A DNA stretch of 64,000 nt from positions 7,564 through 71,563 of the IMG/VR virus record IMGVR_UViG_3300029605_000149; one strand, 5' to 3'. Of the stretch, positions 10,577 through 44,616 are shown piece after piece (within the stretch, counting starts at the first letter, position 1; every line of letters begins with the position of its first letter). The notes under the pieces were generated by a model. The model was not told the origin of the DNA, searched no databases, and saw nothing but the letters and a program-made list of their open reading frames with translations. This stretch comes from a virus. Both the position numbers and the translations under genes were made by a program.

Positions 10577-12621
10577 TGGCAAGTAAGCATAAAGAAGCTG
10601 TTAAAAGGCAAAGAGAAGTTGCTTATGTACAAAAGAAAGAAGATAAAAAGACTGCCTTAGAAACAAAAAGTATAAATGATATCATACCGATTGTTGACAC
10701 ATTTAAAGGATGTTTTAAGCTCAAAGACGGTACCTTCATGGATATCGTACAAGTCAAATGTAAAGACCTTGTTAATGCATCCGAAAGTGATGTCAACTTT
10801 GATATGTACTCTCTTACAAAACTGTACAGAGCTTATACCGATGATTTAAAAATCATTTCTCTTAATTTCCCCACAAATACGAAATCACAACAGATTTATT
10901 TTCAGCACAAAATCAATCATACAGCTAACCCATTACTCAAAAACATACTCAATGAAAAATATGAAAAACTCGTTGATGATGAACTTCACAGCACAAATCG
11001 TGAGCATTACATTATGTACTTCGGTAAAACATATGAGAGGTTACTTAACAATCTCAATACTATTACCGCTTCATTGGGAACATCACTTGTTGAGTTATGT
11101 TCTATGTCTAAGAAAATACAGATGTTGTTCTCTGTCACTAATATGGCGTCGGTTGTATTTTATGACGACACCGCCGATAGAAGAATAAATCCGCCAAATA
11201 AAGAAGAACTTGTCGAAAAGTACGGATATAATCCGTATTTGTTGCAAGCTATACAGCCTATGGGCGGTATCAAGTTCTCAAATGATGATTATATCCGCAC
11301 CGGCGATGGATATGTGACCTGCTTGTATGTGTATGGCTATCCGAAAATTGTTGACAGACATTGGCTTAACACACTTTGCAACAACCGTGGTACTGTGACG
11401 ACCATTGATGTTACAACAGTTGATTCATACAATGTAAAAAAAGACCTAAGAAAGTCAATTGCGGAATATCGAGGAAGAGAGAGAACTGCAAAGAACACAC
11501 TTGACGCTATGGATGCCGCTGATAAAAGAGATGAACTCTCGACTCTTGTAAGAGATGTAAATTATGGTGAAGTAATCAAGAGAATGACTACACGAGTATT
11601 CCTTGCTGACACCAATTACGAAAATCTTATGAAAACCGTAAGATACTATAAGAAAAATGTATTCGAGGATAACGAGTATCAAGTAGCAATCAACCTCAAT
11701 GAAATGCAATATGAGTGGACATCAATGTTTAAATCATATTCTATGCAAAGTGCAGATTACTATTCAAGGCGAACAGGAAAAGCAATAGCTTCCTCGACGC
11801 TTGCCGGCGGTGATGCTTTTCATTTTACTTCTCTTAACGATGAATTTGGCTCCGATTTCGGACATACTCTCTCAAATGGTTATGACGGCAGAGTGTTGCT
11901 TGATATGTTTGAAGCAGGACAGTCAAGGTCATCATATAACTTTCTTTTGGTTGGCTTATCGGGTGTTGGTAAATCAACTCTTCTGAAAAAGATAATGGTT
12001 GACAGAGCAGCAAGAGGAGATTATCTGAGGGTAATTGATGTTGCAGGTGATTTCACTCAGGTGTGTCATTCTCTCGGCGGTAAGGTTGTATATCTTGACG
12101 GTAGTGACGGTGGCAGACTTAATCCTTTGCAGATTAATAAGGCAGATGATACTGATGCAGGTTCATATGATATGAATATCACCAAAATGGCTAATATATA
12201 CAGCTTTCTTGCTCCTGAAGCCTCTGATATTGAAAAGCGTATGTTCAAGAATATCTTGCACCAATTGTACAAACAGTTTGGAATTACTAAAGACACACCA
12301 AACCTTACAGAATTGCCGGCAAAGGCATATCCCCGTATGGAAGATATACTACCGATAATTGATTGGTACCTCAGTCAAATACAGCATGGCGAATTGCAGG
12401 AAGGTGCAATGTCTAAAGAGGAAATGCAGAATGAAGAAATGCGAACAATACTCTTGCACATCAAGCTTGTTATCGTAGATGTCATTCAGTCAAATGCAAA
12501 TATATTTAACAGCTATTCGGATATTGATAATCTTATTGACACGCAGGTTGTTGTTTATAATTTAAAAAAGCTTGATAAGAAAAATGATAACGAAGTGTTT
12601 GTCGCTTTTCGCACAAATTAA
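10576..12621 (+). CDS. VirB4/TrbE-family conjugative ATPase, N-terminal 675 codons; truncated by prophage insertion (last 6 codons plus stop are phage-end sequence)
   Basis: Walker A LLVGLSGVGKSTLLKK at about residue 455; Walker B and C-terminal motifs are found 32 kb downstream at 44612-45139 in the same codon phase. Confidence 0.75.
   Translation: MASKHKEAVKRQREVAYVQKKEDKKTALETKSINDIIPIVDTFKGCFKLKDGTFMDIVQVKCKDLVNASESDVNFDMYSLTKLYRAYTDDLKIISLNFPTNTKSQQIYFQHKINHTANPLLKNILNEKYEKLVDDELHSTNREHYIMYFGKTYERLLNNLNTITASLGTSLVELCSMSKKIQMLFSVTNMASVVFYDDTADRRINPPNKEELVEKYGYNPYLLQAIQPMGGIKFSNDDYIRTGDGYVTCLYVYGYPKIVDRHWLNTLCNNRGTVTTIDVTTVDSYNVKKDLRKSIAEYRGRERTAKNTLDAMDAADKRDELSTLVRDVNYGEVIKRMTTRVFLADTNYENLMKTVRYYKKNVFEDNEYQVAINLNEMQYEWTSMFKSYSMQSADYYSRRTGKAIASSTLAGGDAFHFTSLNDEFGSDFGHTLSNGYDGRVLLDMFEAGQSRSSYNFLLVGLSGVGKSTLLKKIMVDRAARGDYLRVIDVAGDFTQVCHSLGGKVVYLDGSDGGRLNPLQINKADDTDAGSYDMNITKMANIYSFLAPEASDIEKRMFKNILHQLYKQFGITKDTPNLTELPAKAYPRMEDILPIIDWYLSQIQHGELQEGAMSKEEMQNEEMRTILLHIKLVIVDVIQSNANIFNSYSDIDNLIDTQVVVYNLKKLDKKNDNEVFVAFRTN
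12595..12599. repeat. target-site duplication GTGTT (left copy)
   Basis: Identical 5 bp flank both ends of the inserted element; host codons gaa-gtg-ttt are shared. Confidence 0.6.
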
Positions 12622-12649
12622 AAAAACTTTTCGCACTAAATGAAAAAAA
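12600..12649 (+). repeat. phage right-end: terminal TGTCGC followed by two tandem 22-bp repeats TTTTCGCAC(A/T)AAT(T/G)AAAAAA(C/A), candidate transposase binding sites
   Basis: Read directly; other terminus (reverse complement of 44599-44611) is TGTAAGTTTTCGG, giving inverted repeat TGT-N3-TTTTCG. Confidence 0.5.
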
Positions 12650-12702
12650 TTGAATTAATCATTTTTGCATATTGTTGCAGAAATGTTTCCTACAAATAAA
12701 AA

Positions 12703-12737
12703 ACACCTTGCAGAGATTTCACTCATCTGCAAGGTGT
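12703..12737 (-). terminator. rho-independent terminator at end of phage late operon (overlaps last codons of XRE gene)
   Basis: ACACCTTGCAGA / TCTGCAAGGTGT 12-bp stem, followed on minus strand by T-run (12690-12702). Confidence 0.6.
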
Positions 12738-13000
12738 TTTGTGTTTTTATTATGCTTTTTTCTGTCCACGATAAGGTATTTACCGGTTTTCTTGATTTTA
12801 TTTGGTTGATATTCAAGAATATCGGATATATCACATTCAAGAACTTCACAAATTCTATCAAGGTGTTCTAAATTTATCCTGTCACACATTTCATTGTAGA
12901 TATCACAAATGGTAGAAGGACGAATACCAGTTTTTCTTGCAAGTTCCGCTTGCGACATACGATACTTACCTAATATTGTGGACAAATTGATCTTTACCAT
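12719..13000 (-). CDS. XRE-family HTH transcriptional regulator
   Basis: SQAELARKTGIRPSTICDI helix-turn-helix; 93 aa. Confidence 0.7.
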   Translation of the reverse strand: MVKINLSTILGKYRMSQAELARKTGIRPSTICDIYNEMCDRINLEHLDRICEVLECDISDILEYQPNKIKKTGKYLIVDRKKHNKNTKHLADE

Positions 13001-13054
13001 AATAACGCCCCGATGATTATTATATCAGTAAGCGTTAATTATTGCTCATACTTG

Positions 13055-13840
13055 TTAATTCATAACAAAGTTCGTTATGATAACTTCTTTGAACTCCACA
13101 CAATTATCGGGGGTTGCAGGGAGTAGATTTTGCCTACTTACGCACTTTATATTGTAACCTTTATACAAGTCACGAATGAAATCGCAATCGTTATAGGATA
13201 GGATAAAACGCCCTTTAATCCCCTTTAAAACGGCATTTAAACGGATATGGTCATCCTTATTAAACTTACTGTAATTGCGGTTATAGTAGCGTTCCGAGGC
13301 TACATATGGCGGATCTACATAGAACAAGGCAGATTCTCTGTCATATGTTTTTATGAGGTCTTCAAAGTCTCTATTTTCAACGATTACACTTTTTAATCGC
13401 TCCTTGTATTTCGGGAGTTCAGAAACAATGTTATCAATCGTTTTAGGCGCAGTTGCGAACGAATAGCGATTACTGCCGAAACTGCATTTGATTAAGTAAA
13501 GATACCTTGCCGCTCTTTGCAGGTCAGTAAGCTCAACCTGATTCTCAATCTCATAGCGATATTGCGAAAACAACTCACGAGATTGTAACCAGTCAACTTC
13601 TTTTTGAAGTGCTGAACAGTTGTTTTTTATTTGCTTATAAAGGTTAATCAGGTCACCGTCAATGTCGTTAAATACCTCAATTTGACCTTTGATTTTATCC
13701 TTACCGAATAAGACCCAGCCTGCACCGCCACACACCTCTATGTAGCGGTTACAGTCACCGGGAATAAGTGAAATAATCTGATTTTTAAGATGACTTTTGC
13801 CACCAATCCAGCCGATAAAGCTACGCATTTTTACCTCCAT
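13055..13840 (-). CDS. dam: DNA adenine methyltransferase (Dam/MethyltransfD12 family), orphan
   Basis: IGWIGGKS, EVCGGAGWV, NDIDGDLINLY and DPPY motifs; no adjacent restriction endonuclease. Confidence 0.9.
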   Translation of the reverse strand: MEVKMRSFIGWIGGKSHLKNQIISLIPGDCNRYIEVCGGAGWVLFGKDKIKGQIEVFNDIDGDLINLYKQIKNNCSALQKEVDWLQSRELFSQYRYEIENQVELTDLQRAARYLYLIKCSFGSNRYSFATAPKTIDNIVSELPKYKERLKSVIVENRDFEDLIKTYDRESALFYVDPPYVASERYYNRNYSKFNKDDHIRLNAVLKGIKGRFILSYNDCDFIRDLYKGYNIKCVSRQNLLPATPDNCVEFKEVIITNFVMN

Positions 13841-13878
13841 AATAACTTTTTTTAGGGGCGTTATTATGGATCAAAAAA

Positions 13879-14808
13879 TCACTTTAAAAACTTGCGGTCA
13901 ACAAATACAATGCTGTTGCTCTTTGGGTAGGCAATTTCTGCCATTCCTGCATTTTTACCCCTTTCTACAATGTAACGCACGGTTACTCTTGTACCTTTAG
14001 GGATTATGCCAAATTTAACTTTCTTGTCGGGGTGTGTATAAATATTAGCGGTTGCGTTTGCTGTCATTTTTGGGTATTTTGATAATGATGAATTATTATT
14101 GATTCTCGTATTCTGTACAAATCCCGTTTTGTTTTTGTACTTAATTTTACTCCAACCATAGCCATCATCATAAATATGTGTAATGCTTGAATTTTTAGGC
14201 ATTATACAAATATTTTTGCAATCACCATAGGCATACGCTTTTGATTTGAGTTTACTCTCCGTTGTAATCTTATTATGAGCGACAGATGCGTTTGCTTTAT
14301 ATGTAACGCCAAAAGCTGTGCATAAGCCTTTACAAATAGCTTCGCCGAGTTTTGTGGTATTGTTGATAATCCACTTTGCAAGATTTGAACTGTCATGAAA
14401 TTCACATTCACAATATACGCATTTGGCGTGTGTTGAATTAATCTCAGCAAGTTCATTTTTTGAAATGCCTCTACCTACACCTGTGAGCTTTACAAGTTCG
14501 TTGTAAACCGGCTGTGCGTACTTGAGATTTTCCGCAGAACGGTTATAAACAAATACATTTGTACCCTTGCCGCCACCAGCGTTTGTATGGATACAAACAT
14601 GGACATCAGCTCCAAAGTTATTACTTTCAGAAATTGATGTGTACATATTCTGACCTTTCGGAGCACGCTTTACAGTAAATCCGCAACGCTTCAAGGCGGT
14701 TTCTGCTGCAATTGCAATCTTATTGCATTGTTCCATTTCTGTGGTATTGCCGTATGCGTATGAATTTGCATACTGATTTGACGGGCTGAGATAGATTTTC
14801 TTTGCCAT
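13879..14808 (-). CDS. endolysin, N-acetylmuramoyl-L-alanine amidase with C-terminal cell-wall-binding domain
   Basis: Amidase_3-like motif VHVCIHTNAGGGKGTNVFVY; adjacent to holin. Confidence 0.8.
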   Translation of the reverse strand: MAKKIYLSPSNQYANSYAYGNTTEMEQCNKIAIAAETALKRCGFTVKRAPKGQNMYTSISESNNFGADVHVCIHTNAGGGKGTNVFVYNRSAENLKYAQPVYNELVKLTGVGRGISKNELAEINSTHAKCVYCECEFHDSSNLAKWIINNTTKLGEAICKGLCTAFGVTYKANASVAHNKITTESKLKSKAYAYGDCKNICIMPKNSSITHIYDDGYGWSKIKYKNKTGFVQNTRINNNSSLSKYPKMTANATANIYTHPDKKVKFGIIPKGTRVTVRYIVERGKNAGMAEIAYPKSNSIVFVDRKFLK

Positions 14809-14829
14809 TACTATTCCTCGCTTTCATTG

Positions 14830-15030
14830 TTATTCGTTTCTGTTGGCATCAACCATGCCTTCGCCGATGATATATGCAATCATCGTACCTGCGGACATAA
14901 TAATTGATGTAACCTGTGCAGTTTCGGTTTCTGTTACTCCAAATCCCATAAGGAGTGCTGTAACAAAACCGATTACCGCTGCCCAAAATTTCCTGCTTGT
15001 TAATTTCTGTTTCCAGTTGATTTTCTTCAT
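14830..15030 (-). CDS. holin
   Basis: 66 aa, two TM helices, charged C-terminus, immediately upstream of endolysin. Confidence 0.7.
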   Translation of the reverse strand: MKKINWKQKLTSRKFWAAVIGFVTALLMGFGVTETETAQVTSIIMSAGTMIAYIIGEGMVDANRNE

Positions 15031-15284
15031 TATGTTTCCTCGCTTTCTTCTATCATCGGATCATCTACAGTAGGGTTATCACCCCACACAGCGATGACCG
15101 CATTATAGTAATCGTCAGACTAAGACTCCTTAATGAGTGCTCTGCCTGACGGACTGTTTTCATATGCATTGCGGATATTGTTCGTGTAAAATTTCTCACC
15201 ATCAATATCAAAGTATTGTTTTTTATGATTGACACGCTGTCCTTTGTGAGCATATCAAGTGTGATTTTTTTCTTTAAGTTCCAT
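15030..15284 (-). pseudogene. protein-like reading frame with two in-frame stops (TGA, TAG) ending in TAATG overlap with holin start
   Basis: Frame reads MELKEKNHT*YAHKGQRVNHKKQYFDIDGEKFYTNNIRNAYENSPSGRALIKES*SDDYYNAVIAVWGDNPTVDDPMIEESEET; strong RBS AAAGGAGA before ATG at 15284. Confidence 0.3.
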
Positions 15285-15336
15285 TTTTAAATTCTCCTTT
15301 ATTTAATTTTGTACAAGCAAATCACATTTAAAAATT

Positions 15337-17355
15337 TTACTGTCCGGTGGTAAAGTCTTTAAAATAATCGTAATAATCAACTACGCAACGACAAAAAAGT
15401 CTTTCATTTGCTTTTGCCATACCAGCGTATAAAGGTGCTGTCGGGTGATTATAAGACTGCCCCGTCTTATAAATGCTGTCTTTTGCATAAAAAGCGTCAT
15501 CCTTAATGTTTATGAAAGGTATATTGTAATGATTTGCAATATTTTTTATGGCAGCAGTAAAACTATCCTCCGTAGCGTTATATAAATACGCCATAGACAT
15601 TAGCACAATTTTTGACTTTGGAGCGTGTTCTTTGATTTGTTCGATAATTTTTCCGTAATTGCCGTAAAAAGTGTCAGGATAATCGGAATAGGACTCATGA
15701 TTTGTGATGTCTTCGATTGTGCCTAAGTACGAAGCTCCGAGAGAAATTTCGTCATTAATACCTAAGACACACAGATATAACTCTTGTGGTTTCTCCGCAA
15801 GCATTTTGGCAAGTCCATGAGAATTGGTAAGCCATGTTCGGGTTGTAAGACCACCTACGGACAAATTTATGCAGGTGGCGCCGTACTTTCTCGCTAAAAT
15901 CTGACCCCACGATTTTTGGAAATAATCTGCTACAGTATATCCTTTACTCTGTGAAGGGTCAGCAACATAAATTTCACCGCTTGCATATGAATCACCTATA
16001 ACTGCAAATTTTTCAAAAAATCCAAAATCAATCGGAATTTTTTCCTCATGATTTTCAAAATCTGATTTCGATACGCTTTCAAAAATGTAGCAATTCTTTT
16101 TAATAAGGAATCCTGTTCCTGTGCCTTGTAGTCTTGTGCCGTCAGCAATCCCCGAAAAATCATAATCAAATCGCATAATAGCACCAGGCACGATTGCGGA
16201 TAAATCAACAGTTATAGTGCCAGCTTCTTCGGTAACTCTTACACCTTTGACAAGATTTGCTGTAGCACCTGTATCGTCTGTTGTGTAGATATATAATAAA
16301 TTTGTATCATCGCCCTTATAATGTCGATTAAAATTACTGATAAGTAAACGAGCATCGGTGTGATTCATGCCAACTATCTGTACATTGGAAACGATTTTGT
16401 CTGCTTTTCCAGTCAATTCAAAACTCGAAATCTTGTTTGCTATATTTGAATCCATTTCTTCTTTGGCTTTGTCAAGCAGATAATCGAGTCTTGTATTTCC
16501 ATAACACCATTCAGAGCAAAGTACATAACTTTTGTCAAACTGCACATCAGTATTATAAGGAATTTCATCCCAATTTACTGTCATCGTAATAGTCTTATCT
16601 AAATTTGAGTAAGTTGCATACCCCGTTATGTCAGAATCAACATTGGCATATAGTTTCGCAGTCGATAATGCACCGTTTTCAACTAAATAAAGTACGATAG
16701 TGTTTTTTGTGGATGTTCGCTTGACGTAACCTATAGCAATAGTGCTCCCATCTGTAACACGAATGTCTTTAATCGCATACATCCATTCATAGGGATATGA
16801 TTCAAAGACCTGTAAGCCCAGATTTGTTAAATGACACTTCAACTCGTTTATTAAGTTATTTATAATAGCTGTAAGAACTTTGTTCTGTACAGGATTAACG
16901 CTCTTAGCATCCAGTGCAGTATCGGTAAGCACAGCTCCACTCTCGGTCAGAGCAATGACACGGGACAATATGTCTAATAATTCGGGATAATAGTCAGAGG
17001 TAGTGATGTCACCGTCATAATCGCTGTGGGTGTTAATTACAAACGGTTGAGTAGAGTAGGTGTGAGTGCCGTCTGTAAGCACAATTTTAGCTATAGTCCT
17101 GCCGGCAGATGAAAGCATAGCTTTATCTGTAGTTACAGTAACAATATTTTTTGCTACTGTAGCATTTACAGCAAAATAGTTACTGCCGCTTTTACCTTTG
17201 CATACAGCTGTTGCACCAGTTGCATCGTAAGCCTCGCCATCAGCGGTAAGGTTAATTTTAATCTGTCTGCCAATGTCATATTGCCCTGCTGAGATTACTA
17301 TGGGAGTAGCCTGACAGTTTAAATCAAGCGTAATTTTAGCAACATATTCATTCAT
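15337..17355 (-). CDS. tail fibre / receptor-binding protein with C-terminal SGNH (GDSL) hydrolase domain
   Basis: GDSYASG (block I) and GINDE (block III) motifs in C-terminal third; position after Tal. Confidence 0.7.
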   Translation of the reverse strand: MNEYVAKITLDLNCQATPIVISAGQYDIGRQIKINLTADGEAYDATGATAVCKGKSGSNYFAVNATVAKNIVTVTTDKAMLSSAGRTIAKIVLTDGTHTYSTQPFVINTHSDYDGDITTSDYYPELLDILSRVIALTESGAVLTDTALDAKSVNPVQNKVLTAIINNLINELKCHLTNLGLQVFESYPYEWMYAIKDIRVTDGSTIAIGYVKRTSTKNTIVLYLVENGALSTAKLYANVDSDITGYATYSNLDKTITMTVNWDEIPYNTDVQFDKSYVLCSEWCYGNTRLDYLLDKAKEEMDSNIANKISSFELTGKADKIVSNVQIVGMNHTDARLLISNFNRHYKGDDTNLLYIYTTDDTGATANLVKGVRVTEEAGTITVDLSAIVPGAIMRFDYDFSGIADGTRLQGTGTGFLIKKNCYIFESVSKSDFENHEEKIPIDFGFFEKFAVIGDSYASGEIYVADPSQSKGYTVADYFQKSWGQILARKYGATCINLSVGGLTTRTWLTNSHGLAKMLAEKPQELYLCVLGINDEISLGASYLGTIEDITNHESYSDYPDTFYGNYGKIIEQIKEHAPKSKIVLMSMAYLYNATEDSFTAAIKNIANHYNIPFINIKDDAFYAKDSIYKTGQSYNHPTAPLYAGMAKANERLFCRCVVDYYDYFKDFTTGQ

Positions 17356-38228: not shown

Positions 38229-38245
38229 TTTTATCCCTCCGAAAT

Positions 38246-38632
38246 TTAATATAGTTCAATACTTTTGTTATTAGCAATAAAATGTTTTTTCATTTTCTCA
38301 AAGTTTGTCCAATATGGTAAATACACATCATAGCCAAACTTCTCTTTGAGTTCCTGCTTAGCTTTCTTGCTACGAGCTCCGTAAAGTTTGCAATCTTTTT
38401 CGGTAACTACCGACTGTCTCTTACAGCAACAAAATCTCCTGCGTTCTTCGCAGTCCTCCATAAGCCACTTGCCACGAAATTCATCGTTGATATAAACTAC
38501 GATAGCATTTTGAAATCGTGATTTTTGAGTGAGGTTCAGAGATACTTTATATCCGTCAATTTTGAGATGTACATACGGACTCCATACAGAAGTAAGGGCT
38601 TCGTCAACCTTTTTCCACTCTTCTGCGGTCAT
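38246..38632 (-). CDS. hypothetical protein
   Basis: 128-aa ORF. Confidence 0.35.
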   Translation of the reverse strand: MTAEEWKKVDEALTSVWSPYVHLKIDGYKVSLNLTQKSRFQNAIVVYINDEFRGKWLMEDCEERRRFCCCKRQSVVTEKDCKLYGARSKKAKQELKEKFGYDVYLPYWTNFEKMKKHFIANNKSIELY

Positions 38633-38840
38633 TGTTACCCCTCCTTTTACTCTTTTTTACCTTTCGGCTTTCGCCACGGATCATCCAACCGACCCATACA
38701 AGCAGGAGCACCATAGGCACAAAGCAAATTTCTCCGCCTGCTGTAAAGCTCCTTGTACCCATTTGACCGAATGCGGCGGTCATTACTACTCCCGTGCTGA
38801 ACCCTGCGGCGAGCAGTAACACGATTTTTCTTAACGACAT
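38604..38840 (-). CDS. small membrane protein with basic C-terminus
   Basis: 78 aa, two TM helices. Confidence 0.35.
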   Translation of the reverse strand: MSLRKIVLLLAAGFSTGVVMTAAFGQMGTRSFTAGGEICFVPMVLLLVWVGWMIRGESRKVKKSKRRGNNDRRRVEKG

Positions 38841-38862
38841 TTAAAATCCCTCCGAATATTAT

Positions 38863-39774
38863 TTAAAACACCTTGATACGCATAGCTTTTGCCATTGCTA
38901 TTAAGCCCTCATAGGTGATGTTTCCGTTGTCAACGGCATTTCCAAAAACATTGCTTGCTCCTCTGATGCCCTGTTCAGACCTTGATACACCAAGCAAAAA
39001 GTTCACTGCTCGTTCGTCCGACTTAATCGCCGGGAACAGTAACTCAATGTCACTGCTCTTAATTGTCGAAGTGTGTCTTACTTCGGTAAGTTTTGTGCGA
39101 TTGCGAATCTGAGCAAAGGCTTCTTTGCTTTTACCCGTGTTTGTGACAGTTTCGATGTTGCCTACAAGGCAGATGCCGAGTAACGGGTTGCTGTCAAAAA
39201 ATGCTCTGATAGCCTCAATGGTCTTAATCGGCAGGTGCTGTGCCTCATCAATGATGAGCACCTTGCGTTCGCCTTCAAAGCTGTCTGCAAGCCTCAGCCA
39301 CATTTCATCCTTTCGCCCTGATGCCGTGATTTTCTGTGTTCTGCAAAGTAGTTTTAAAAATGCACTTAAAGTTACTAAACAGGGGTTTACGGACACATAA
39401 ATTGCTGTTGCAGGATAATCTTCGGCATACTTTTTGCACGCCATTGTTTTTCCTATGCCTGCATCGCCACACTCAATTGCAAGACCGCCCTTAAGATGAC
39501 ACAAGCGGATTGTATCATAAACCTCTGAGCTTATGCTTGTAGGCTTGTAGCTGTTAAGCACCTGAGCTGATTTGAGATTTTCTGCAGCGGCTTTGGTTTC
39601 AAATGTTTCAGTTAAAAACTTTTCAAAATCACTTAAATTACCGTTATAACGATTGTTCAAGTAGGTTGACAAAGTCGCTGCTGACTTTCCGAGAGCTTTT
39701 GCGGCTTTGGTTTGAGAGCCACATTCTTCAATAAAGTTCCTTAATTTCTCCTGTAATTCAGGGTTGGCTGACAT
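38863..39774 (-). CDS. MuB-like transposition ATPase (AAA+ with N-terminal HTH)
   Basis: HTH QTKAAKALGKSAATLSTYL; Walker A GDAGIGKT; Walker B LIIDEAQHL; directly downstream of transposase. Confidence 0.8.
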   Translation of the reverse strand: MSANPELQEKLRNFIEECGSQTKAAKALGKSAATLSTYLNNRYNGNLSDFEKFLTETFETKAAAENLKSAQVLNSYKPTSISSEVYDTIRLCHLKGGLAIECGDAGIGKTMACKKYAEDYPATAIYVSVNPCLVTLSAFLKLLCRTQKITASGRKDEMWLRLADSFEGERKVLIIDEAQHLPIKTIEAIRAFFDSNPLLGICLVGNIETVTNTGKSKEAFAQIRNRTKLTEVRHTSTIKSSDIELLFPAIKSDERAVNFLLGVSRSEQGIRGASNVFGNAVDNGNITYEGLIAMAKAMRIKVF

Positions 39775-39777
39775 TAT

Positions 39778-41736
39778 TTATTCCTCCTTCTGTCGTTGTT
39801 CAAGATTTCTTATCATTTTTGCCTTATCTATCGTTACGATATTCGACTGACCAACTGCCATAGGCAACTGCTCTGCCGTTTCATCGGCACGGTGTACTGA
39901 TATAACCTTCGGATTGATTTCTTCGGCATTTGCTTTGTTTTCCTCAGCGGTTGCAAGCACAAGATTGAGTGCTGTTTCTTTGCCAAATGCTGTAATCTGA
40001 CTTGCCTTGAGTTCCTGTTTGGTGAGCTTTTCAAGGCTCTTAACTTTACGGAGTGCCTGAGCAACTGCATCTTTAGATGCTCCGTAGGCAAGGACTGCTT
40101 CATTGTCTGTTGGAGCGGTCATTATGTAGTTATCATCAAGGTCATATATTCTTACGGTTGATATATCTTCCGGGTCATATCGACAGTAAACCGATTCTCC
40201 AAAATGATTTAAAATAAGGTCATCATTGTAGTAATCAATTTTCTCGCATGCAACAGTAAGATGTACTCCACGCCTGCCGACTTTCTGACTTCTTGTGCTT
40301 CTCATTAACATTAAGTTAAGGTCAAGTTCTGCGGCGACTCGTTTTTCTTTAAGTTGTTCTCTGTAAACCTGCATTCGGCTTTTACCGCTGTCTGAGCTTA
40401 CCGCTCCGCTATATGGTTTTTCATTCATATAGTAGGTTAAAATGTCCTCAACTGCCTGAGTGAATTCATAATCCGTGGGTATGTTGTCGGTGTCCTTGAT
40501 TACCTTTTTAAGTCGTTCCGGTCGTTCGACTACATTACCGCCTGTATAAGTCGGAAACAGTCTTGAAAGTCGGTCTTTAACATCTCGAAATCGTCTTTCA
40601 ATGATCTTTGCCTTCGCATTTCGTACGATAGCATTTGTCATTTTTATGCCGAGTCTTTCAAACACAGGAGGTGGAGCAAATTTATCTTTTGTACTCTTCT
40701 TTTGCCTGTGACCTAAACCACCTACGTCGAAGGTAAGAAACTCACGACCATTATCAACATAAATGTTCTGCGGTATGCCGTATTTTACAATACCTTTCCT
40801 CAAGGCAATCAGTGTAGCTTGCGATGACGGTGCGTCTGTTACATAACACCCGGTGAATATTCCGCTGCGAGCGTCAAAAAATGCTGTGAGATAAAGCCTG
40901 TGCAGGTTACCTTTTTCACCTTTTGTCTGTACGTCAAAAGTATGATTGTCGGCAATCCACCATTCATTACTTACCATATCTTCATAGGTACGTCTGATAT
41001 ACGGAGCACACCTGTCCCTAAAGGCTTTCATACCTTGCCGTCCCATAATTTCAACAGGCTTAGGTATTGCCGTTTGTACTTTCCTGTAAAACGATGCATA
41101 AGCAGGGAGAGGTAACAGCTGTGGAGCTTCTCGCTTAATCCACATTTCGGTGTATTCATAGCACGCCTGTATAGGGTGCTGTGCCTCATCAAGATAAAAA
41201 CTTAAAAAGCATTGCCACACTTCTTCAGGAATTGACGATGTACCTTTTTTCCAACTTCCACGATTGTCAAGCAGTCCTGCAAGATCATCGGCTTTTAAAG
41301 CCTTTTTTTTCCGGTACAAAATTCCCTTCGATATGTTAAGGTCGGGATTAGCGACCTTTTGCAGTTGTACAAATTTTTCGGTTGCAGGTACTTTCTGTAA
41401 CTTTGATGTTGCACAATACTCATCCCAAGCATTAAGTATCCTTATCCATTCGGCAATCTCTTCACGCTGTACCGCCGAAAATTCATCAAATTCCTTGTGG
41501 GGTCGCTCCGTCTTGCGTTCGGGGAGCAAATCCTCAGGAATTGCTATTGCGTGCGATTTGTAGTATTTAAGCTGTTCCGAGTGGGATAGTTCATTTAAAG
41601 GTATCAAATATTTTTTGCGGTTGTTTTGGTTTATTGTTTCATCACCCTGAAGACTTCCATTGTTTATGAGCATTTTTACATATCGTTCAGAGCAACCTTT
41701 TATCCCAGCAACTTCCTTTGCCGTTAGATAAATCAA
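39778..41736 (-). CDS. MuA-like DDE transposase (rve/Mu transposase family)
   Basis: N-terminal HTH; catalytic triad candidates in WWIADNHTFD, IYVDNGREF and KIIERRFRD; 652 aa. Confidence 0.85.
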   Translation of the reverse strand: MIYLTAKEVAGIKGCSERYVKMLINNGSLQGDETINQNNRKKYLIPLNELSHSEQLKYYKSHAIAIPEDLLPERKTERPHKEFDEFSAVQREEIAEWIRILNAWDEYCATSKLQKVPATEKFVQLQKVANPDLNISKGILYRKKKALKADDLAGLLDNRGSWKKGTSSIPEEVWQCFLSFYLDEAQHPIQACYEYTEMWIKREAPQLLPLPAYASFYRKVQTAIPKPVEIMGRQGMKAFRDRCAPYIRRTYEDMVSNEWWIADNHTFDVQTKGEKGNLHRLYLTAFFDARSGIFTGCYVTDAPSSQATLIALRKGIVKYGIPQNIYVDNGREFLTFDVGGLGHRQKKSTKDKFAPPPVFERLGIKMTNAIVRNAKAKIIERRFRDVKDRLSRLFPTYTGGNVVERPERLKKVIKDTDNIPTDYEFTQAVEDILTYYMNEKPYSGAVSSDSGKSRMQVYREQLKEKRVAAELDLNLMLMRSTRSQKVGRRGVHLTVACEKIDYYNDDLILNHFGESVYCRYDPEDISTVRIYDLDDNYIMTAPTDNEAVLAYGASKDAVAQALRKVKSLEKLTKQELKASQITAFGKETALNLVLATAEENKANAEEINPKVISVHRADETAEQLPMAVGQSNIVTIDKAKMIRNLEQRQKEE

Positions 41737-41814
41737 AAAATCACATCCTTTTGACCTGCCATCATCAGAGCAGGGAGGTCATTTCCTGCTGACCGCCTTG
41801 CGGCGGTTTCGGCT

Positions 41815-42060
41815 TTAACTGAGTTGAGCGGCCGGATTGTTAATACCATTTCTCACTAAAATAGTATTAAGTTCTGAAAACTCATCCCAAGTAATTGCTT
41901 TCAGCTTATAAGCCATTTCGGCTTTTCCATATGTTTGGTATGTTAAGTTAAGAGAATGACTGTTCAAAGCGTATCTCGCTTCTCTGTGTAGTTTTTCTAA
42001 AATGTCACTCATAATTATCCTCCTTGATTTTTTTGATAGAATTATTGAAGCTAAATTCAA
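41815..42060 (-). CDS. hypothetical early protein
   Basis: 81-aa ORF. Confidence 0.4.
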   Translation of the reverse strand: MNLASIILSKKSRRIIMSDILEKLHREARYALNSHSLNLTYQTYGKAEMAYKLKAITWDEFSELNTILVRNGINNPAAQLS

Positions 42061-42509
42061 CCTCTATATTCAGGACTATAAAAACGATGATATAACTCAA
42101 ACTCTTCTACAAGTGAATTATCAATATACACTTTTGCTTTATGTTTGTAGATAACCACACTTGCAATTTCTCCGATATGGTAAAGTGCCAAATCCGGAAG
42201 ATAATACTTTTTTCCGTTGATGTGCAAACCGTATCTTGATACCCTTTGTTTTAATACCGTAGGTTTTACTATACCTAATATTTTCGTCCGCTGATTTTTC
42301 ACTTTGATATCAGCGGATTTTTTTAGTTTTACAACTTCGTCAGGTGATAATCCTGTTTCCTCGTATTCGCAAAGTTTTTGCAGTACTTCTCGTGTCTGAC
42401 CTACCGACAATTCAGCCGGAATGAGATGTTTGCTTTCTTCTCCAACATAAACAGTAGTTTGACACAGCTTTTTTGTTAATCTGTCCATAAGTCCTCCTTG
42501 ATGTGACAT
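42057..42509 (-). CDS. hypothetical early protein
   Basis: 150-aa ORF. Confidence 0.4.
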   Translation of the reverse strand: MSHQGGLMDRLTKKLCQTTVYVGEESKHLIPAELSVGQTREVLQKLCEYEETGLSPDEVVKLKKSADIKVKNQRTKILGIVKPTVLKQRVSRYGLHINGKKYYLPDLALYHIGEIASVVIYKHKAKVYIDNSLVEEFELYHRFYSPEYRG

Positions 42510-42651
42510 TCCTTATTTGTGTAGTGCGTACATTCTTCAACTGTGCAATCTCGTGGCTGTCCCGTATCAAGAATGTAATAACAAATCGAATAGCCTTTGT
42601 TGTTACTATGGTTTAATGGTCTGCGGTGTCCGCACCCTTTACAGCGAGGGT

Positions 42652-42861
42652 TCACTTTATTACACAAAATGCTCTCTCCATAAATTCTTTGGCAGCGGCA
42701 TTTCTGCTTGCAAAGTAACTGCCGCTGTAAGGATCTCCGTCGCTGTCCAGCCACCACACAACCCACGGTTCAACTGCATTTGGATTGTGAGCCATTACAA
42801 CACGATTGTTTATGTTTCCGATTATTTCATACCTGTTAATTGTTTTGCCTATCATAATCAA
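42652..42861 (-). CDS. hypothetical small protein
   Basis: 69-aa ORF coupled to ner-like gene; overlaps an alternative Cys-rich ORF (42476-42766). Confidence 0.3.
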   Translation of the reverse strand: MIMIGKTINRYEIIGNINNRVVMAHNPNAVEPWVVWWLDSDGDPYSGSYFASRNAAAKEFMERAFCVIK

Positions 42862-43085
42862 TCTCCTTTTCTTGCAAAATTTATTTCCTTATCTACCAGT
42901 GTGTTTACTGATACCTTTAATGCTTTAGAAAGACCATATAAAATAGCGATGTTCATATTCTTTTGTCTTTGTCCCTGTTCAATAAGATTGTAGTAACTCT
43001 CAGATATTCCCATACTTTTAGATATATCTAATTGAGTTAGCCCCTTTTTATTTCTCAAATCAATGAGATAAACACGCTTTTTCAT
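42858..43085 (-). CDS. Ner/Cro-like XRE HTH regulator, first gene of early operon
   Basis: KGLTQLDISKSMGISESYYNLIEQG HTH; divergent from repressor. Confidence 0.7.
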   Translation of the reverse strand: MKKRVYLIDLRNKKGLTQLDISKSMGISESYYNLIEQGQRQKNMNIAILYGLSKALKVSVNTLVDKEINFARKGD

Positions 43086-43238
43086 TTAATCACCGTCCTT
43101 AACTTTGCATATTGTCAAGTTTCAAGTATATAATACGCCTTTATTTACTATTTGTCAAGTTTTTTCTTGACATTTTGCAAAGTTTAATTTACTTTACTAA
43201 TAGTAAAGTTTATAATAATAACAATAGGGGCTGAGCTT
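43086..43238. promoter_or_regulatory. divergent early/repressor control region with operator-like repeats
   Basis: TTGTCAAGTTT twice (43117, 43153), partial inverted copy CTTGACA, TTGACA -35, and 19-bp perfect palindrome ACTTTACTA-A-TAGTAAAGT at about 43188-43206. Confidence 0.5.
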
Positions 43239-44177
43239 ATGACTAAACTAAAAGAATTACGAAAAGAACACAAATTATCAATGAAAGAATTAGGAAAAAT
43301 TCTCGGTCTTTCTGAAAGTACCATTTCTCTTTATGAGGCAGGAAAAAGAGAACCGGATATAAAAACACTTATAAAAATGGCTGATTATTTTAAAGTGAGT
43401 GTTGATGTCCTAATTGGCAGAAATGAAACAAACGAAGATGACATACTTGATACCGAACACGGAGAAGGGACTCTTGACGGTCATAGTTTATGTATGTTTA
43501 ATTTTGAAAAGATGTGTAAAGAACTGGATGAACATAGCTTAGACATAATTCATTCTGTTTTATATGCTTTAAGAAGGATTCAATATAATGATGCCTTGTT
43601 TGCTAAAGATAAACAGTATGTATTTACTGCGGTAACTGAGCTTATAGGAAGAATTGAAAGATATGTTGATGATTTCCGCACAGCAATGGATTCCAAAATG
43701 ATATTTGATTATAGTTACCATAATAAGAGGTTTATTAACGGTGAAGTTGCCGTGTTAAAAAGAGTTGTGAGCCTTATTACACCTGAGCAAAAGCCGATTG
43801 TTGAAGGTACAATTGTAATTCCCTTTTATGAAACTCCGGTTTCAGCAGGCACTGGTTCATGGCTTGGTGATGATATTGTAGCCGAATGGCTTACTGTCCC
43901 ACGAAATGATCTGACCACTTCGGCTGATTTTGCGTTAAAAATATCAGGTGATAGTATGCAACCGAAGTTTTCAAACGGTGAAACTGTGCTTGTAAAACAA
44001 ACATCAAGTGTATTTGAAGGTGAAATCGGGGTTTTCGTACTTAACGGTGAATCGTATATTAAAAAATTAGGAAAAAAGGAGCTTGTTTCACTTAATCCAG
44101 CCTATAAGCCTATACCTTTACACGGATTTGATGATGTTCGTTGTGTAGGTAAGGTGCTTGGTGCACTTAATATGTAA
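43239..44177 (+). CDS. CI/LexA-like phage repressor (XRE HTH plus S24 peptidase)
   Basis: N-terminal LSMKELGKILGLSESTISLYEAG HTH; C-terminal GDSMQPKF Ser and downstream Lys of S24 self-cleavage dyad. Confidence 0.85.
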   Translation: MTKLKELRKEHKLSMKELGKILGLSESTISLYEAGKREPDIKTLIKMADYFKVSVDVLIGRNETNEDDILDTEHGEGTLDGHSLCMFNFEKMCKELDEHSLDIIHSVLYALRRIQYNDALFAKDKQYVFTAVTELIGRIERYVDDFRTAMDSKMIFDYSYHNKRFINGEVAVLKRVVSLITPEQKPIVEGTIVIPFYETPVSAGTGSWLGDDIVAEWLTVPRNDLTTSADFALKISGDSMQPKFSNGETVLVKQTSSVFEGEIGVFVLNGESYIKKLGKKELVSLNPAYKPIPLHGFDDVRCVGKVLGALNM

Positions 44178-44417
44178 AAATATTCATTTAATTGTATTTT
44201 TTTACATAACTCAACTTGTCTGATTTTTTCAACATTAAAAAGGTCAATATGTTAAAAGTATAGATTTCATCGGAATAGGAAGTCACTTCCCTTTAAAATT
44301 AAAATACTTCCTATTGTTTAAATGTTTTAATCGTATAGATAAAAGTATATTAAAATCCTATTTATGCCGATTTAAAGCCCTTTTAAACACTTTTAAAAGG
44401 TTATTTTTAAAAAATTA

Positions 44418-44462
44418 AAGCCGAGCAGATTCACAATTTTTTCGTGATTTGCTCGGCTTTTT
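44418..44462 (+). terminator. stem-loop AAGCCGAGCA...TGCTCGGCTT followed by T-run
   Basis: 10-bp perfect stem read in sequence, T5 after. Confidence 0.5.
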
Positions 44463-44464
44463 CG

Positions 44465-44486
44465 TTTTCGCACTAAATAAAAAAAC
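44465..44486 (+). repeat. third copy of the 22-bp end repeat (TTTTCGCACTAAATAAAAAAAC), inverted relative to this terminus
   Basis: Near-identical to copies at 12606-12649. Confidence 0.5.
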
Positions 44487-44611
44487 AAGCTGTTTTTTCA
44501 AAGTGTAATTTCTTTTTACACCTAAAAAACGGCTTGTTTTCTACATTTTCAGATTTTTAACTTTTTTTAACGGCTTTTTACGGTTTTTCCTATTCTCTCC
44601 GAAAACTTACA

Positions 44612-44616
44612 GTGTT
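44612..44616. repeat. target-site duplication GTGTT (right copy)
   Basis: Matches 12595-12599. Confidence 0.6.

What the first reader, a model, noticed from the sequence alone, without database searches (positions are those of the whole stretch)
12595..44616. Mu-like transposable prophage precisely delimited inside a VirB4 conjugation ATPase gene
Left junction reads gaa-GTGTT|TGTCGCTTTTCGCAC and right junction reads CCGAAAACTTACA|GTGTT-taaagcacag. The element begins 5'-TG and ends CA-3' and is flanked by a 5-bp direct duplication, the hallmark of Mu-type replicative/conservative transposition. Removing 12600-44616 joins ...DNEVF to KAQVFSALS... in one frame. The Walker A motif (GLSGVGKST) lies upstream of the junction and Walker B (LLLIDESH) downstream, as in an intact VirB4. 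The element encodes a MuA-like DDE transposase plus a MuB-like AAA+ protein, Mor, a gp27-like TerS and a MuF-like protein. Its tail module is siphovirus-type with Gram-positive style lysis genes. This is a transposable phage caught knocking out the mating channel ATPase of a conjugative replicon.
Basis: partly seen in the sequence, partly recalled or inferred. Interest (0 to 1): 0.9.

Follow-up and report, generated by a model that had tools for sequence, protein, structure and literature searches.

The report
Mu-like prophage splitting a VirB4 gene
A 32-kb transposable (Mu-type) prophage of the gut bacterium Ruminococcus bromii has jumped precisely into, and broken, the VirB4 motor gene of a conjugative element; this is a clean but essentially ordinary example of a known kind of event.

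Summary
A 32,012-bp element (12600-44611) begins TG, ends CA and is flanked by GTGTT on both sides. Removing it restores an 848-aa ORF that is 100% identical to an intact VirB4-family protein found in other assemblies. An uninterrupted copy of the locus (L001) aligns at 99.7-99.8% up to both junctions.

The element encodes a MuA-type DDE transposase with the catalytic triad conserved, an adjacent MuB-like AAA+ protein, GemA, Mor and Gp27. It also carries a complete siphovirus head/tail module, a holin and an amidase. Its ends carry 22-bp repeats at nt 6-27 and 28-49, the geometry of Mu R1/R2.

At least 30 other insertion sites of the same phage share the exact termini, and three show their own 5-bp duplications. 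The target 5-mers fit N-Y-N-R-N.

Refinements:
- The host is R. bromii.
- The conjugative element is chromosomal (an ICE), not necessarily a plasmid.
- The direct repeat is formally 7 nt, through microhomology.
- The "MuF-like" protein matches Phage_min_cap2, not Phage_Mu_F.
- The repressor is LexA/S24-type.

This is a new member of a known kind. Seen in passing: a hammerhead ribozyme just 5' of MuA in 85 of 86 related loci, a twister candidate, and a conserved LoaP-like gene plus RAGATH-28 pair.

The parts
12595..12599 (.). Left copy of the 5-bp target-site duplication (GTGTT)
   Evidence: Present once in the empty site L001.
12600..44611 (-). Mu-like transposable prophage, 32,012 bp, TG...CA termini. 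Almost all genes are on the minus strand. The repressor-proximal (Mu L-like) end is at 44611.
   Evidence: GC is 40% against 35-36% in the flanks.
44612..44616 (.). Right copy of the 5-bp target-site duplication (GTGTT)
10576..12599 (+). N-terminal 674 codons of the VirB4-family ATPase gene, with Walker A. The ORF runs on into the phage end and stops at 12621 (681 aa).
44617..45139 (+). C-terminal 174 codons of the VirB4-family gene, with Walker B (LLLIDESH)
12605..12648 (+). Two adjacent 22-bp repeats (CTTTTCGCACAAATTAAAAAAA and CTTTTCGCACTAAATGAAAAAA) at element nt 6-27 and 28-49. Putative transposase-binding sites with Mu R1/R2 geometry.
   Evidence: The two repeats share 19 of 22 positions. 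Exact TTTTCGCAC occurs only 3 times in 64 kb, all at the element ends.
44585..44606 (-). Terminal 22-bp site at nt 6-27 of the repressor-proximal end (GTTTTCGGAGAGAATAGGAAAA). Putative L1-like site.
   Evidence: It shares 15 of 22 positions with the first site at the other end.
44464..44485 (+). Internal 22-bp site (GTTTTCGCACTAAATAAAAAAA), 127-148 nt from the end and inverted relative to the terminal site
   Evidence: It shares 19-20 of 22 positions with the sites at the other end.
43239..44177 (+). Repressor: N-terminal HTH_3 plus C-terminal Peptidase_S24 (LexA-like autocleavage domain), transcribed divergently from the early operon
42858..43085 (-). Small HTH regulator in the Ner/Cro position; first gene of the early operon
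41750..41814 (-). Type II hammerhead ribozyme. It starts directly after the stop codon of ORF 41815-42060 and ends 13 nt before the transposase start codon.
39778..41736 (-). MuA-type DDE transposase (652 aa); catalytic residues D263, D328, E380
38863..39774 (-). MuB-like AAA+ transposition protein (303 aa), with Walker A GDAGIGKT and Walker B LIIDEAQH
37864..37924 (-). Candidate twister-P1 ribozyme, below the Rfam gathering score, in the gap before the AbrB-like gene
37568..37822 (-). AbrB/MazE-like small protein. The probable true start is the ATG at 37822, preceded by AGGAGG.
36426..36938 (-). GemA homologue
   Evidence: PF06252, 6.7e-16.
36155..36490 (-). Mor-family transcription activator
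   Evidence: PF08765, 2.6e-13.
34827..35381 (-). Mu Gp27 homologue (DUF3486)
   Evidence: PF11985, 8.6e-21.
34321..34830 (-). NusG paralogue, LoaP-like antiterminator
   Evidence: NF033641, 1.5e-27, below the curated cut-off.
34249..34330 (-). RAGATH-28 RNA motif, overlapping the end of the LoaP-like gene and upstream of the terminase genes
28364..34072 (-). Packaging and head module: TerS-like (33737-34072), TerL (32512-33786), SPP1-type portal (31078-32496), minor capsid protein 2 with an unassigned 230-aa C-terminal extension (29288-31078), and scaffold (28364-28903)
24306..28351 (-). Major head protein (27365-28351), head-tail adaptor, connector and tail-completion proteins, a putative tail tube protein, and two further small genes of unknown function in the position usual for tail-assembly chaperones
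15337..23696 (-). Siphovirus tail tip: tape measure (20214-23696), Dit (19472-20284), Tal/tail spike (17661-19463), and a BppU_N plus GDSL-esterase receptor-binding protein (15337-17355)
12719..15030 (-). Lysis and end-proximal genes: holin (14830-15030), Amidase_3/SH3 endolysin (13879-14808), D12-class N6-adenine DNA methyltransferase (13055-13840), and an HTH_26 regulator (12719-13000)

Best explanation
This is an apparently complete Mu-type transposable siphophage of Ruminococcus bromii. It inserted by MuA/MuB-mediated DDE transposition into codon 675 of the VirB4-family ATPase gene of a chromosomally integrated conjugative element.

Shown by the sequence:
- exact TG...CA termini and a 5-bp duplication;
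- an intact empty site in other assemblies;
- a MuA homologue with the DDE triad, followed by a MuB homologue;
- 22-bp terminal repeats at nt 6-27 and 28-49, as in Mu R1/R2;
- many different insertion sites of the same phage elsewhere, with an N-Y-N-R-N target bias.

Inferred from what is established for Mu:
- The transposase assembles on the terminal repeats and nicks 3' of the terminal CA.
- It joins the 3'-OH ends to target phosphates staggered by 5 bp. The target is captured by the DNA-bound MuB ATPase. Repair then yields the duplication.
- In the lysogen, the divergently transcribed HTH-S24 repressor keeps the early operon silent (Ner-like regulator, small ORFs, hammerhead, A, B). Because its C-terminal domain is LexA-like, induction is probably by RecA-stimulated self-cleavage, unlike the Mu c repressor.
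- Mor, and perhaps the LoaP-like antiterminator, then turn on the late operon.

Consequence, also inferred: VirB4 is cut between Walker A and Walker B. The conjugative element can therefore no longer power its own mating channel.
For: - Junctions and restored ORF.
- Intact protein, 100% identical over 100% of its length.
- Empty-site DNA, 99.7-99.8% identical up to both junctions.
- The same junction on 4 contigs.
- MuA domains, DDE triad and MuB.
- GemA, Mor, Gp27.
- Virion and lysis genes.
- Terminal repeats with Mu R1/R2 geometry, and the motif restricted to the element ends.
- Identical termini next to 30 and 15 distinct flanks in IMG/VR and genome contigs.
- Independent 5-bp duplications GCAAT, TCAGA and ATAGG.
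- Target bias, position 2 Y in 30/42, position 4 R in 37/42, N-Y-N-R-N in 27/42 against 25% expected (p 9e-8).
- Host names given by NCBI for cluster members, all Ruminococcus bromii.
- VirB4 family assignment.
- Conjugation context (TrbC-like, DUF8208, DUF5592, CHAP hydrolase, sortases and pilins; MobC and relaxase further along in L179).
Against: - There is no experimental evidence that this copy can be induced or can transpose.
- Two of the five relatives where both ends lie on one contig do not show matching 5-mers: L028/L149, with flanks of only 39 and 70 nt, and L041/L161. The likely causes are cross-strain assembly or rearrangement, but this was not resolved.
- The window's own target, GTGTT, fits N-Y-N-R-N at only one of the two biased positions.
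- The 42 target sites may include a few counted twice from opposite ends.
- This copy is about 1-1.9 kb longer than three relatives measured end to end (about 30.1-31.0 kb, my arithmetic). The difference was not located.
- The internal site at the repressor-proximal end is inverted relative to the terminal one. From memory, this differs from Mu L2/L3.
- The relaxase and coupling protein of the conjugative element are not in the window. The element also has a frameshifted DUF8208 gene, so it may already have been non-transmissible.
Confidence: 0.9

Rival explanations
1. The element is a Mu-like prophage that inserted by transposition, but this copy is now defective or domesticated: a fixed remnant that can no longer be induced or transpose.
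For: The identical junction occurs on 4 contigs, so the insertion is inherited in a lineage. This copy differs in length from its relatives (my arithmetic).
Against: Every expected gene is an uninterrupted ORF, from the repressor through to the end-proximal regulator. Both ends and all end repeats are intact and identical to those of copies at many other sites. Identical MuA and capsid proteins occur on other contigs.
Confidence: 0.12
2. The insertion is targeted rather than quasi-random. On this reading the phage, or selection acting on it, prefers conjugation genes or this conjugative element, for example as phage-ICE antagonism or hitch-hiking.
For: The element is AT-rich (35% GC), and Mu B is known, from the literature as I recall it, to favour AT-rich DNA. 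The insertion hits an essential conjugation gene.
Against: None of 64 flanks next to the ends of related phage copies matches this conjugative element. Their flanks are unrelated to each other, with GC from 26% to 52%. Intact VirB4 is by far the commoner state: 848-aa members dominate a cluster of 1149 sequences.
Confidence: 0.04
3. The junctions are an assembly artefact: a phage contig wrongly joined into a conjugative element.
For: Two relatives have non-matching flanks, which shows that metagenome assemblies of this repeated phage can be chimeric.
Against: A chimera would not give exact TG/CA ends, a perfect 5-bp duplication of a sequence present once in the empty site, and an in-frame restoration of an 848-aa protein. 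The same junction is found on 4 contigs.
Confidence: 0.01
4. It is a Tn7/Tn552-type transposon (DDE transposase plus AAA+ regulator, which also makes 5-bp duplications) that merely carries phage-like cargo.
For: The MuB-like protein gives weak matches to TniB and AAA_22. A 5-bp duplication is not unique to Mu.
Against: The transposase has the Mu-specific I-gamma DNA-binding and C-terminal domains. GemA, Mor and Gp27 are Mu-lineage genes. A complete packaging, head, tail and lysis set fills the element. The gene order is c / ner-like / A / B, as in Mu. The closest named relative is Bacillus phage BalMu-1.
Confidence: 0.02

Closest known systems
Escherichia phage Mu (Muvirus)
   Same: Gene order is repressor / Ner-like / A / B ... 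GemA, Mor ... Gp27, late genes. The MuA domain set and DDE triad are conserved and a MuB homologue follows. Termini are TG...CA with a 5-bp duplication. Two adjacent 22-bp repeats lie at nt 6-27 and 28-49 of the end distal to the repressor, exactly as for R1/R2 in the Mu sequence. There is a DNA-modification gene at that end (Dam-type here, mom in Mu). The target bias is N-Y-N-R-N.
   Different: Identity is only 24% for A and 26% for B, and there is no DNA similarity. The tail is siphovirus-type, not contractile. Packaging and head genes are SPP1/PBSX-like. The repressor is an HTH-S24 (LexA-like) protein. Lysis genes are Gram-positive style. The central target position is A/T-rich rather than G/C. 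The early and late control regions carry hammerhead, twister-like and RAGATH-28 RNAs and a LoaP-like gene. No hammerhead was found in the first 4.8 kb of Mu.
Bacillus phage BalMu-1 (NC_030945) and unnamed human-faecal phage contigs (MT835795, MT835475, MT839372)
   Same: These are the best matches to the transposase in the phage collection: 39.5% identity over 96% for BalMu-1, and 40-53% for the faecal contigs. All are Gram-positive Mu-like phages.
   Different: They are still distant, and there is no nucleotide match. I did not compare their ends or gene content.
Mu-like prophages of gut Clostridia, e.g. Clostridium clostridioforme LM41 phi13-delta / Clostridium phage Villandry (PMC11318856) and Faecalibacterium phage Mushu (PMC5883640)
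   Same: The LM41 paper describes a prophage in a gut Clostridium with a repressor, Ner-like regulator, Mu transposase (phrog_310), DNA transposition protein (phrog_296), Mor and a phrog_4681 antitoxin. The same PHROG families are hit here. For Mushu I saw only its listing in the literature search and did not read the paper.
   Different: The host species and sequence differ. Those phages are reported with Mu-like head genes (gpT, Mu F, protein I), whereas this one has SPP1-type head genes. I found no paper that mentions a Mu-like phage of R. bromii.
IMG/VR and MAG prophages of the same lineage (L002-L062, L071-L117)
   Same: MuA is 79-99% identical in about 50 IMG/VR contigs and 73-85% identical in Ruminococcus/Clostridiales MAGs. 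They share the same termini and the same hammerhead position.
   Different: Each sits at a different chromosomal site, and none is in this conjugative element. All are unannotated database sequences, not described phages.

Membership tests
Mu-like transposable phages | DDE transposase of the MuA type, with Mu-specific DNA-binding and C-terminal domains and a conserved D-D-E triad | tested here: met
   Pfam Mu-transpos_C 8.6e-15, HTH_Tnp_Mu_2 6e-12, rve, DDE_2. phrog_310 at 1.5e-116. D263/D328/E380 align with MuA D269/D336/E392 and are invariant in 7 relatives.
Mu-like transposable phages | MuB-like AAA+ ATPase gene immediately downstream of the transposase gene | tested here: met
   phrog_296 'DNA transposition protein' at 2.4e-53. 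26% identity to Mu B, E 5e-20, with Walker A and B aligned. The gene starts 4 nt after the transposase gene ends.
Mu-like transposable phages | Termini 5'-TG...CA-3' flanked by a 5-bp target duplication | tested here: met
   In the window. Termini are invariant next to 45 distinct flanks. Three further insertions have 5-bp duplications: GCAAT, TCAGA, ATAGG. Two other pairs did not match.
Mu-like transposable phages | Several transposase-binding repeats at each end, of about 22 bp, the first starting about 5 nt from the terminus | tested here: met
   Repeats lie at nt 6-27 and 28-49 of one end, and at nt 6-27 and 127-148 of the other. The geometry matches Mu R1/R2 read from NC_000929. Protein binding itself was not tested.
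Mu-like transposable phages | Insertion at many unrelated sites rather than at one att site | tested here: met
   30 distinct flanks at the repressor-proximal end and 15 at the other, in related copies.
Mu-like transposable phages | Replication by replicative transposition, and headful packaging with host DNA attached to both ends | not testable with these tools
   This needs virion DNA or induced-culture reads. Short, non-matching flanks on some IMG/VR contigs (L028/L149) are compatible with it but are not evidence.
Mu-like transposable phages | Mu-lineage regulatory and accessory genes (Ner-like, GemA, Mor, Gp27) in Mu order | tested here: met
Genus Muvirus / close relatives of phage Mu | Contractile tail and Mu-type head genes; substantial sequence similarity to Mu | tested here: not met
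   No sheath protein was detected. The tail has a tape measure, Dit and Tal, and the portal is SPP1-type. Identity to Mu A and B is 24-26%. megablast finds nothing.
VirB4 family of type IV secretion ATPases | Full-length colinear similarity to VirB4/TraC profiles, with Walker A and Walker B motifs | tested here: met
   NF045975 aligns to residues 20-844 at 7.7e-90. The score of 301.8 bits is below that model's equivalog cut-off of 590, so the protein belongs to the family but not to that exact subfamily. Also matched: TIGR02746 TraC, PF19044, and precomputed PF26593 TraC-like. Identity to annotated VirB4 genes is 35-37% over 95-99%. The motifs were read directly.
VirB4 family of type IV secretion ATPases | Located in a conjugation gene cluster | tested here: met
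   Neighbours in the window and in L001/L184 are TrbC-like, DUF8208, DUF5592, a CHAP/lysozyme hydrolase, and sortases with SpaA-type pilins. MobC, relaxase and SSB lie beyond the window end in L179. No coupling protein was identified.
Hammerhead ribozyme, type II (RF02276) | Conserved catalytic core (CUGAUGA, GAAA, GUC) with three helices and a loop-tail pseudoknot supported by covariation | tested here: met
   43.9 bits against a gathering score of 37. On 18 phage copies, 97.7% of cells are paired and 15 of 19 pairs show compensatory changes, including 4 of 5 pseudoknot pairs. 0 of 500 shuffles reach these values, and slid controls give 29-47% paired. Self-cleavage was not tested.

The most novel reading that the evidence does not exclude
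In the whole Gram-positive Mu-like lineage to which this prophage belongs, self-cleaving RNAs may be built into the control of transposition and late expression.

A type II hammerhead ends 12-146 nt upstream of the MuA start codon in 85 of 86 loci, and within 13-30 nt in 74 of them. Cleavage there would release an A-B mRNA with a 5'-OH and a structured 5' end next to its Shine-Dalgarno sequence. That could set transposase mRNA stability or translation independently of the upstream Ner-like genes.

A LoaP-like NusG paralogue is always followed directly by the RAGATH-28 RNA, just ahead of the terminase genes. RAGATH-28 may therefore be the cis-acting element of a phage antitermination switch for the late operon.

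If so, this phage family would be a tractable natural system for the unresolved question of what bacterial hammerhead and twister ribozymes are for.
Probability: 0.35. Interest if true: 0.6.

Novelty: new member of a known kind. Interest (0 to 1): 0.35.

Why it matters
As a biological event it is ordinary. Mu-type phages insert nearly anywhere, and here one happened to land in a conjugation ATPase gene.

It still has three uses. First, it defines to the base the ends, end repeats, target duplication and target bias of a transposable phage of Ruminococcus bromii. R. bromii is a keystone resistant-starch degrader for which, to my knowledge, few genetic tools exist. A MuA-plus-ends system native to Clostridia could be the basis of a transposon mutagenesis tool.

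Second, it is a natural example of one mobile element disabling another. The empty and occupied alleles both circulate in public metagenomes, so the fitness effect on ICE spread could be followed.

Third, the lineage shows a nearly invariant hammerhead ribozyme just 5' of the transposase gene and a LoaP-like/RAGATH-28 pair. This gives a concrete genetic context to ribozymes whose function in bacteria is called 'largely elusive' (PMC6765202). Their link to prophage 'integrase' genes was noted in 2011 (PMC3088659) without their being recognised as Mu-type transposases.

Tried and rejected
- Nucleotide searches found nothing: the restored VirB4 region against PLSDB plasmids (blastn) and 24 kb of the phage against GenBank phages (megablast).
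- An exact or degenerate 40-mer of the repressor-proximal end found no match in the GTDB representative genomes. A profile search with MuA then found only relatives at 85% identity or less.
- The pattern of two TTTTCGCAC cores 22 bp apart retrieved few extra relatives. End-pairing was therefore done through the Dam methylase gene instead.
- I looked for other insertions of this phage in the same conjugative element and found none among 64 flanks.
- I suspected a JAB/MPN-like motif (HNHNTDGYFSETD) in the 230-aa C-terminal extension of the minor capsid protein. Neither Pfam at E up to 1 nor NCBIfam supports it, so I dropped the idea.
- Several ORFs have no family assignment: 36940-37641, 42057-42509, 42476-42766, 41815-42060 and 17348-17620.
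- Three literature searches for an R. bromii Mu-like phage found nothing. The 2015 ribozyme-discovery paper that I tried to open is not held.
- There are no tRNA genes in the window.
- I considered and rejected a plasmid as the necessary host replicon. The same Rep3-VirB4 cluster lies at 531-552 kb of a 2.05-Mb contig.

Full report
**1. The observation**

GTGTT lies at 12595-12599. The element starts TGTCGCTTTTCGCAC at 12600 and ends CCGAAAACTTACA at 44611. GTGTT recurs at 44612-44616. Removing 12600-44616 joins ...DNEVF to KAQVF... in one 848-aa ORF that starts at 10576. GLSGVGKST lies before the join and LLLIDESH after it.

That reconstructed protein is not hypothetical. It is 100% identical over its whole length to P0001, an intact protein that represents a cluster of 1149 sequences. 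The contig encoding P0001 (L001) aligns with the window at 99.8% identity up to 12600 and at 99.7% from 44611 onward.

The two alignments overlap by 7 nt (AGTGTTT). The host bases next to the duplication happen to match the terminal A and T of the element, so the window alone allows a duplication of 5 to 7 bp. Section 3 resolves this.

The identical truncated product (681 aa, ending in phage-encoded residues) is called on 4 contigs of the public collection. One of them is 100% identical to the window over 8 kb. The junction is therefore reproducible.

**2. What the element encodes**

Almost everything is on the minus strand, so the Mu 'left' end is at 44611. Reading from that end:

- Regulation: a divergent HTH plus Peptidase_S24 repressor (43239-44177), then a small HTH regulator in the Ner position (42858-43085), then three small ORFs.
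- Transposition: a 652-aa transposase and a 303-aa AAA+ protein.
  - The transposase matches Mu-transpos_C, HTH_Tnp_Mu_2, rve and DDE_2, and phrog_310 at 1.5e-116.
  - The AAA+ protein matches phrog_296 'DNA transposition protein' at 2.4e-53.
- Middle region: small ORFs including an AbrB-like protein, then GemA, Mor, two small ORFs (35709-36080 and 35384-35716) and Gp27.
- Late control: a LoaP-like NusG paralogue.
- Packaging and head: a TerS-like protein, a PBSX-type TerL, an SPP1-type portal, a 596-aa 'minor capsid protein 2', a scaffold protein and the major head protein.
- Tail: connectors, a putative tail tube, tape measure, Dit, Tal, and a BppU_N plus GDSL receptor-binding protein.
- Lysis and end-proximal genes: holin, Amidase_3/SH3 endolysin, a D12-class adenine methyltransferase and a last HTH protein.

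Aligned with Mu A, the transposase places D263, D328 and E380 on D269, D336 and E392. These residues are invariant in seven relatives down to 54% identity. The AAA+ protein aligns with Mu B through both Walker motifs.

The profile matched is PF06152, not Phage_Mu_F.

**3. The ends, and proof that this phage transposes**

The end distal to the repressor carries two adjacent 22-bp repeats at element nt 6-27 and 28-49. They share 19 of 22 positions. The other end has one at nt 6-27 and an inverted one at nt 127-148.

The core TTTTCGCAC occurs exactly three times in the 64-kb window, always in these sites. Read from NC_000929, the right end of Mu has R1 and R2 at the same coordinates, nt 6-27 and 28-49.

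IMG/VR holds about 50 contigs with MuA 79-99% identical (61 loci in all, the others about 53-54%), and genome collections hold more distant relatives. In these, both termini are conserved to the base (TGTCGC... and TGT[A/G]AG...). They abut 15 and 30 different flanking sequences respectively. This fixes the ends at TG and CA, and hence the duplication at 5 bp.

Where both ends lie on one contig, three insertions show their own perfect 5-bp duplications: GCAAT, TCAGA and ATAGG. Two do not. One of those has flanks of only 39 and 70 nt. The other probably reflects cross-strain assembly or rearrangement.

Across 42 target 5-mers, position 2 is a pyrimidine in 30 and position 4 a purine in 37. N-Y-N-R-N occurs in 27 of 42 against 25% expected (p about 9e-8). 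As I recall, Mu's target consensus is N-Y-G/C-R-N. Here the centre is A/T-rich. A few sites may be counted twice from opposite ends.

**4. The interrupted gene and its replicon**

The restored protein aligns colinearly with several VirB4-type models and genes:

- NCBIfam VirB4_plasma, residues 20-844 at 7.7e-90, below that model's equivalog cut-off;
- F-type TraC;
- Pfam P-loop_TraG, across the junction;
- annotated VirB4 genes of Gram-positive plasmids, at 35-37% identity over 95-99%.

Its neighbours are a TrbC-like protein, a 933-aa DUF8208 membrane protein, DUF5592, a CHAP/lysozyme hydrolase, sortases, Rep3, a tyrosine recombinase and ParAB. In other assemblies the cluster continues with a serine recombinase, MobC, a relaxase and SSB, and is preceded by SpaA-type pilins.

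NCBI names members of the VirB4, Rep and MuA clusters as Ruminococcus bromii proteins. The same Rep3-to-VirB4 block lies at 531-552 kb of a 2.05-Mb contig. The 'conjugative replicon' is therefore an integrated conjugative element with plasmid-like replication and partition genes, at least in those strains.

The insertion separates Walker A from Walker B. Loss of ATPase function, and of self-transfer, is a safe inference but remains untested.

**5. Mechanism**

The steps shown are those in sections 1-3. The rest is inferred from the Mu paradigm:

- a transpososome assembles on the end repeats;
- the 3' ends are nicked after the terminal CA;
- MuB-assisted strand transfer goes to phosphates 5 bp apart;
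- repair produces the duplication.

The S24 domain of the repressor predicts SOS/RecA-type induction, which differs from Mu.

**6. Comparison and novelty**

Known Gram-positive Mu-like phages include Bacillus phage BalMu-1, whose transposase is 39.5% identical. Prophages of gut Clostridia such as C. clostridioforme LM41 phi13-delta / Villandry carry the same PHROG families. Faecalibacterium phage Mushu turned up in the literature search, but I did not read that paper.

A 2026 preprint surveys gut MuA/B phages, mainly in Bacteroidales and Enterobacteriaceae. I found no paper on an R. bromii Mu-like phage.

The phage is abundant in public metagenomes but unnamed. This is a new member of a known kind. 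The insertion into VirB4 is best read as one chance hit among many: none of 64 other flanks belongs to this conjugative element.

**7. Seen in passing**

- Rfam finds a type II hammerhead at 41750-41814. It lies between the stop codon of the preceding ORF and the transposase Shine-Dalgarno sequence and start codon.
- A covariance model built from 18 copies finds a hammerhead ending 12-146 nt upstream of MuA in 85 of 86 related loci; in 74 of the 85 the distance is 13-30 nt. All lie on the MuA strand. 30 of the 86 loci carry 2-4 copies in the early operon. The searched region of Mu has none.
  - On those 18 copies, 97.7% of cells are paired and 15 of 19 pairs show compensatory change, the pseudoknot included.
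- Perreault et al. 2011 already reported bacterial hammerheads near prophage 'integrase' genes. The refinement here is that these are MuA transposases and that the position is nearly fixed.
- A twister-P1 candidate lies before the AbrB-like gene. It is below the gathering score but has E 1.8e-10.
- RAGATH-28 overlaps the last codons of the LoaP-like gene in the window. In 8 of 8 relatives checked it adjoins that gene: it overlaps the last codons in 7 and starts 34 nt beyond the aligned end in L082.
- The window also has a 1-nt deletion in an A-run that frameshifts the DUF8208 gene. L001 lacks 1346 bp that remove most of rep.

**8. Verdict**

The feature is real but ordinary in kind, and interest is modest. 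The ribozyme architecture is the part most worth a separate look.

Noticed in passing
window 41750-41814 (-); related loci L002-L117: A type II hammerhead ribozyme lies directly after the stop codon of ORF 41815-42060 and ends 13 nt before the MuA start codon. A hammerhead ends 12-146 nt upstream of MuA in 85 of 86 related loci (51-99% MuA identity; Ruminococcus, Lachnospiraceae, Oscillospiraceae, Collinsella). 30 loci have 2-4 copies in the early operon. Covariation is strong, including in the pseudoknot. The searched 4.8 kb of phage Mu has none.
   Followed up: yes
window 34249-34330 (-) with 34321-34830 (-); L033, L038, L052, L062, L071, L072, L075, L082: A RAGATH-28 RNA (63.7 bits) overlaps the last codons of a LoaP-like NusG paralogue and precedes the terminase genes. 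The same gene-RNA juxtaposition is present in 8 of 8 relatives checked. It may be the cis element of a phage late-operon antitermination switch.
   Followed up: partly
window 37864-37924 (-): A candidate twister-P1 ribozyme (55.5 bits, below the gathering score of 67.2, E 1.8e-10) lies in the gap between ORF 37932-38228 and the AbrB-like gene. That gene's real start is probably the ATG at 37822, after AGGAGG.
   Followed up: partly
window about 9527 (ORFs 7334-9550 and 9655-10134): A 1-nt deletion in an A-run, relative to L001, frameshifts the 933-aa DUF8208 conjugation membrane protein into 738-aa and about 155-aa pieces. The same lesion is in the 100%-identical contig L183. This would be a second inactivating lesion in the conjugative element, unless it is a shared homopolymer sequencing error.
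   Followed up: partly
window 2618-3963 versus L001 3387/3388: The empty-site contig L001 lacks 1346 bp that are present in the window. The deletion removes most of the Rep3 initiator gene (2438-3634), so the replication module of this element is polymorphic between assemblies.
   Followed up: partly
L184 (ERZ28759214 contig_6651, 2.05 Mb), L185, L186, L179: The Rep3-ParAB-VirB4 conjugative element is embedded in chromosome-sized R. bromii contigs and is extremely common: its Rep protein is indexed in 3090 blocks of the collection. It carries SpaA-type sortase-dependent pilins upstream, and a serine recombinase, MobC, relaxase and SSB downstream.
   Followed up: partly
window 29288-31078 (-), residues 367-596: The minor capsid protein 2 (in the MuF position) has a 230-aa C-terminal extension with no Pfam or NCBIfam match. 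It contains HNHNTDGYFSETD, which resembles a JAB/MPN metalloprotease motif shortened by one residue. Profile searches do not support this.
   Followed up: partly
L147, L148, L154, L161-L163, L165-L167, L169-L172, L175 (IMG/VR): Fourteen contigs share the same flank (...AGATACCGCACCATC|TG) at the repressor-distal end of the phage, so one lysogen or insertion site is widespread. Contig 3300030444_000250 (L041/L161) combines this flank with a non-matching flank at the other end. The repressor-proximal flank of L041 (...ATGACTAA) also resembles the repressor-distal flank of L068.
   Followed up: no
L067 positions 1-16: The IMG/VR contig 3300045988_021744 begins with TGTGTATAAGAGACAG. From memory this is the Nextera mosaic-end adapter, so it is probably adapter contamination at the contig end.
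   Followed up: no
window 12600-44611 versus contigs 3300014947_000169, 3300023496_000201, 3300008547_000295: This copy (32.0 kb) is about 1-1.9 kb longer than three relatives measured between the same termini (about 30.1, 31.0 and 30.7 kb). The extra DNA was not located.
   Followed up: no
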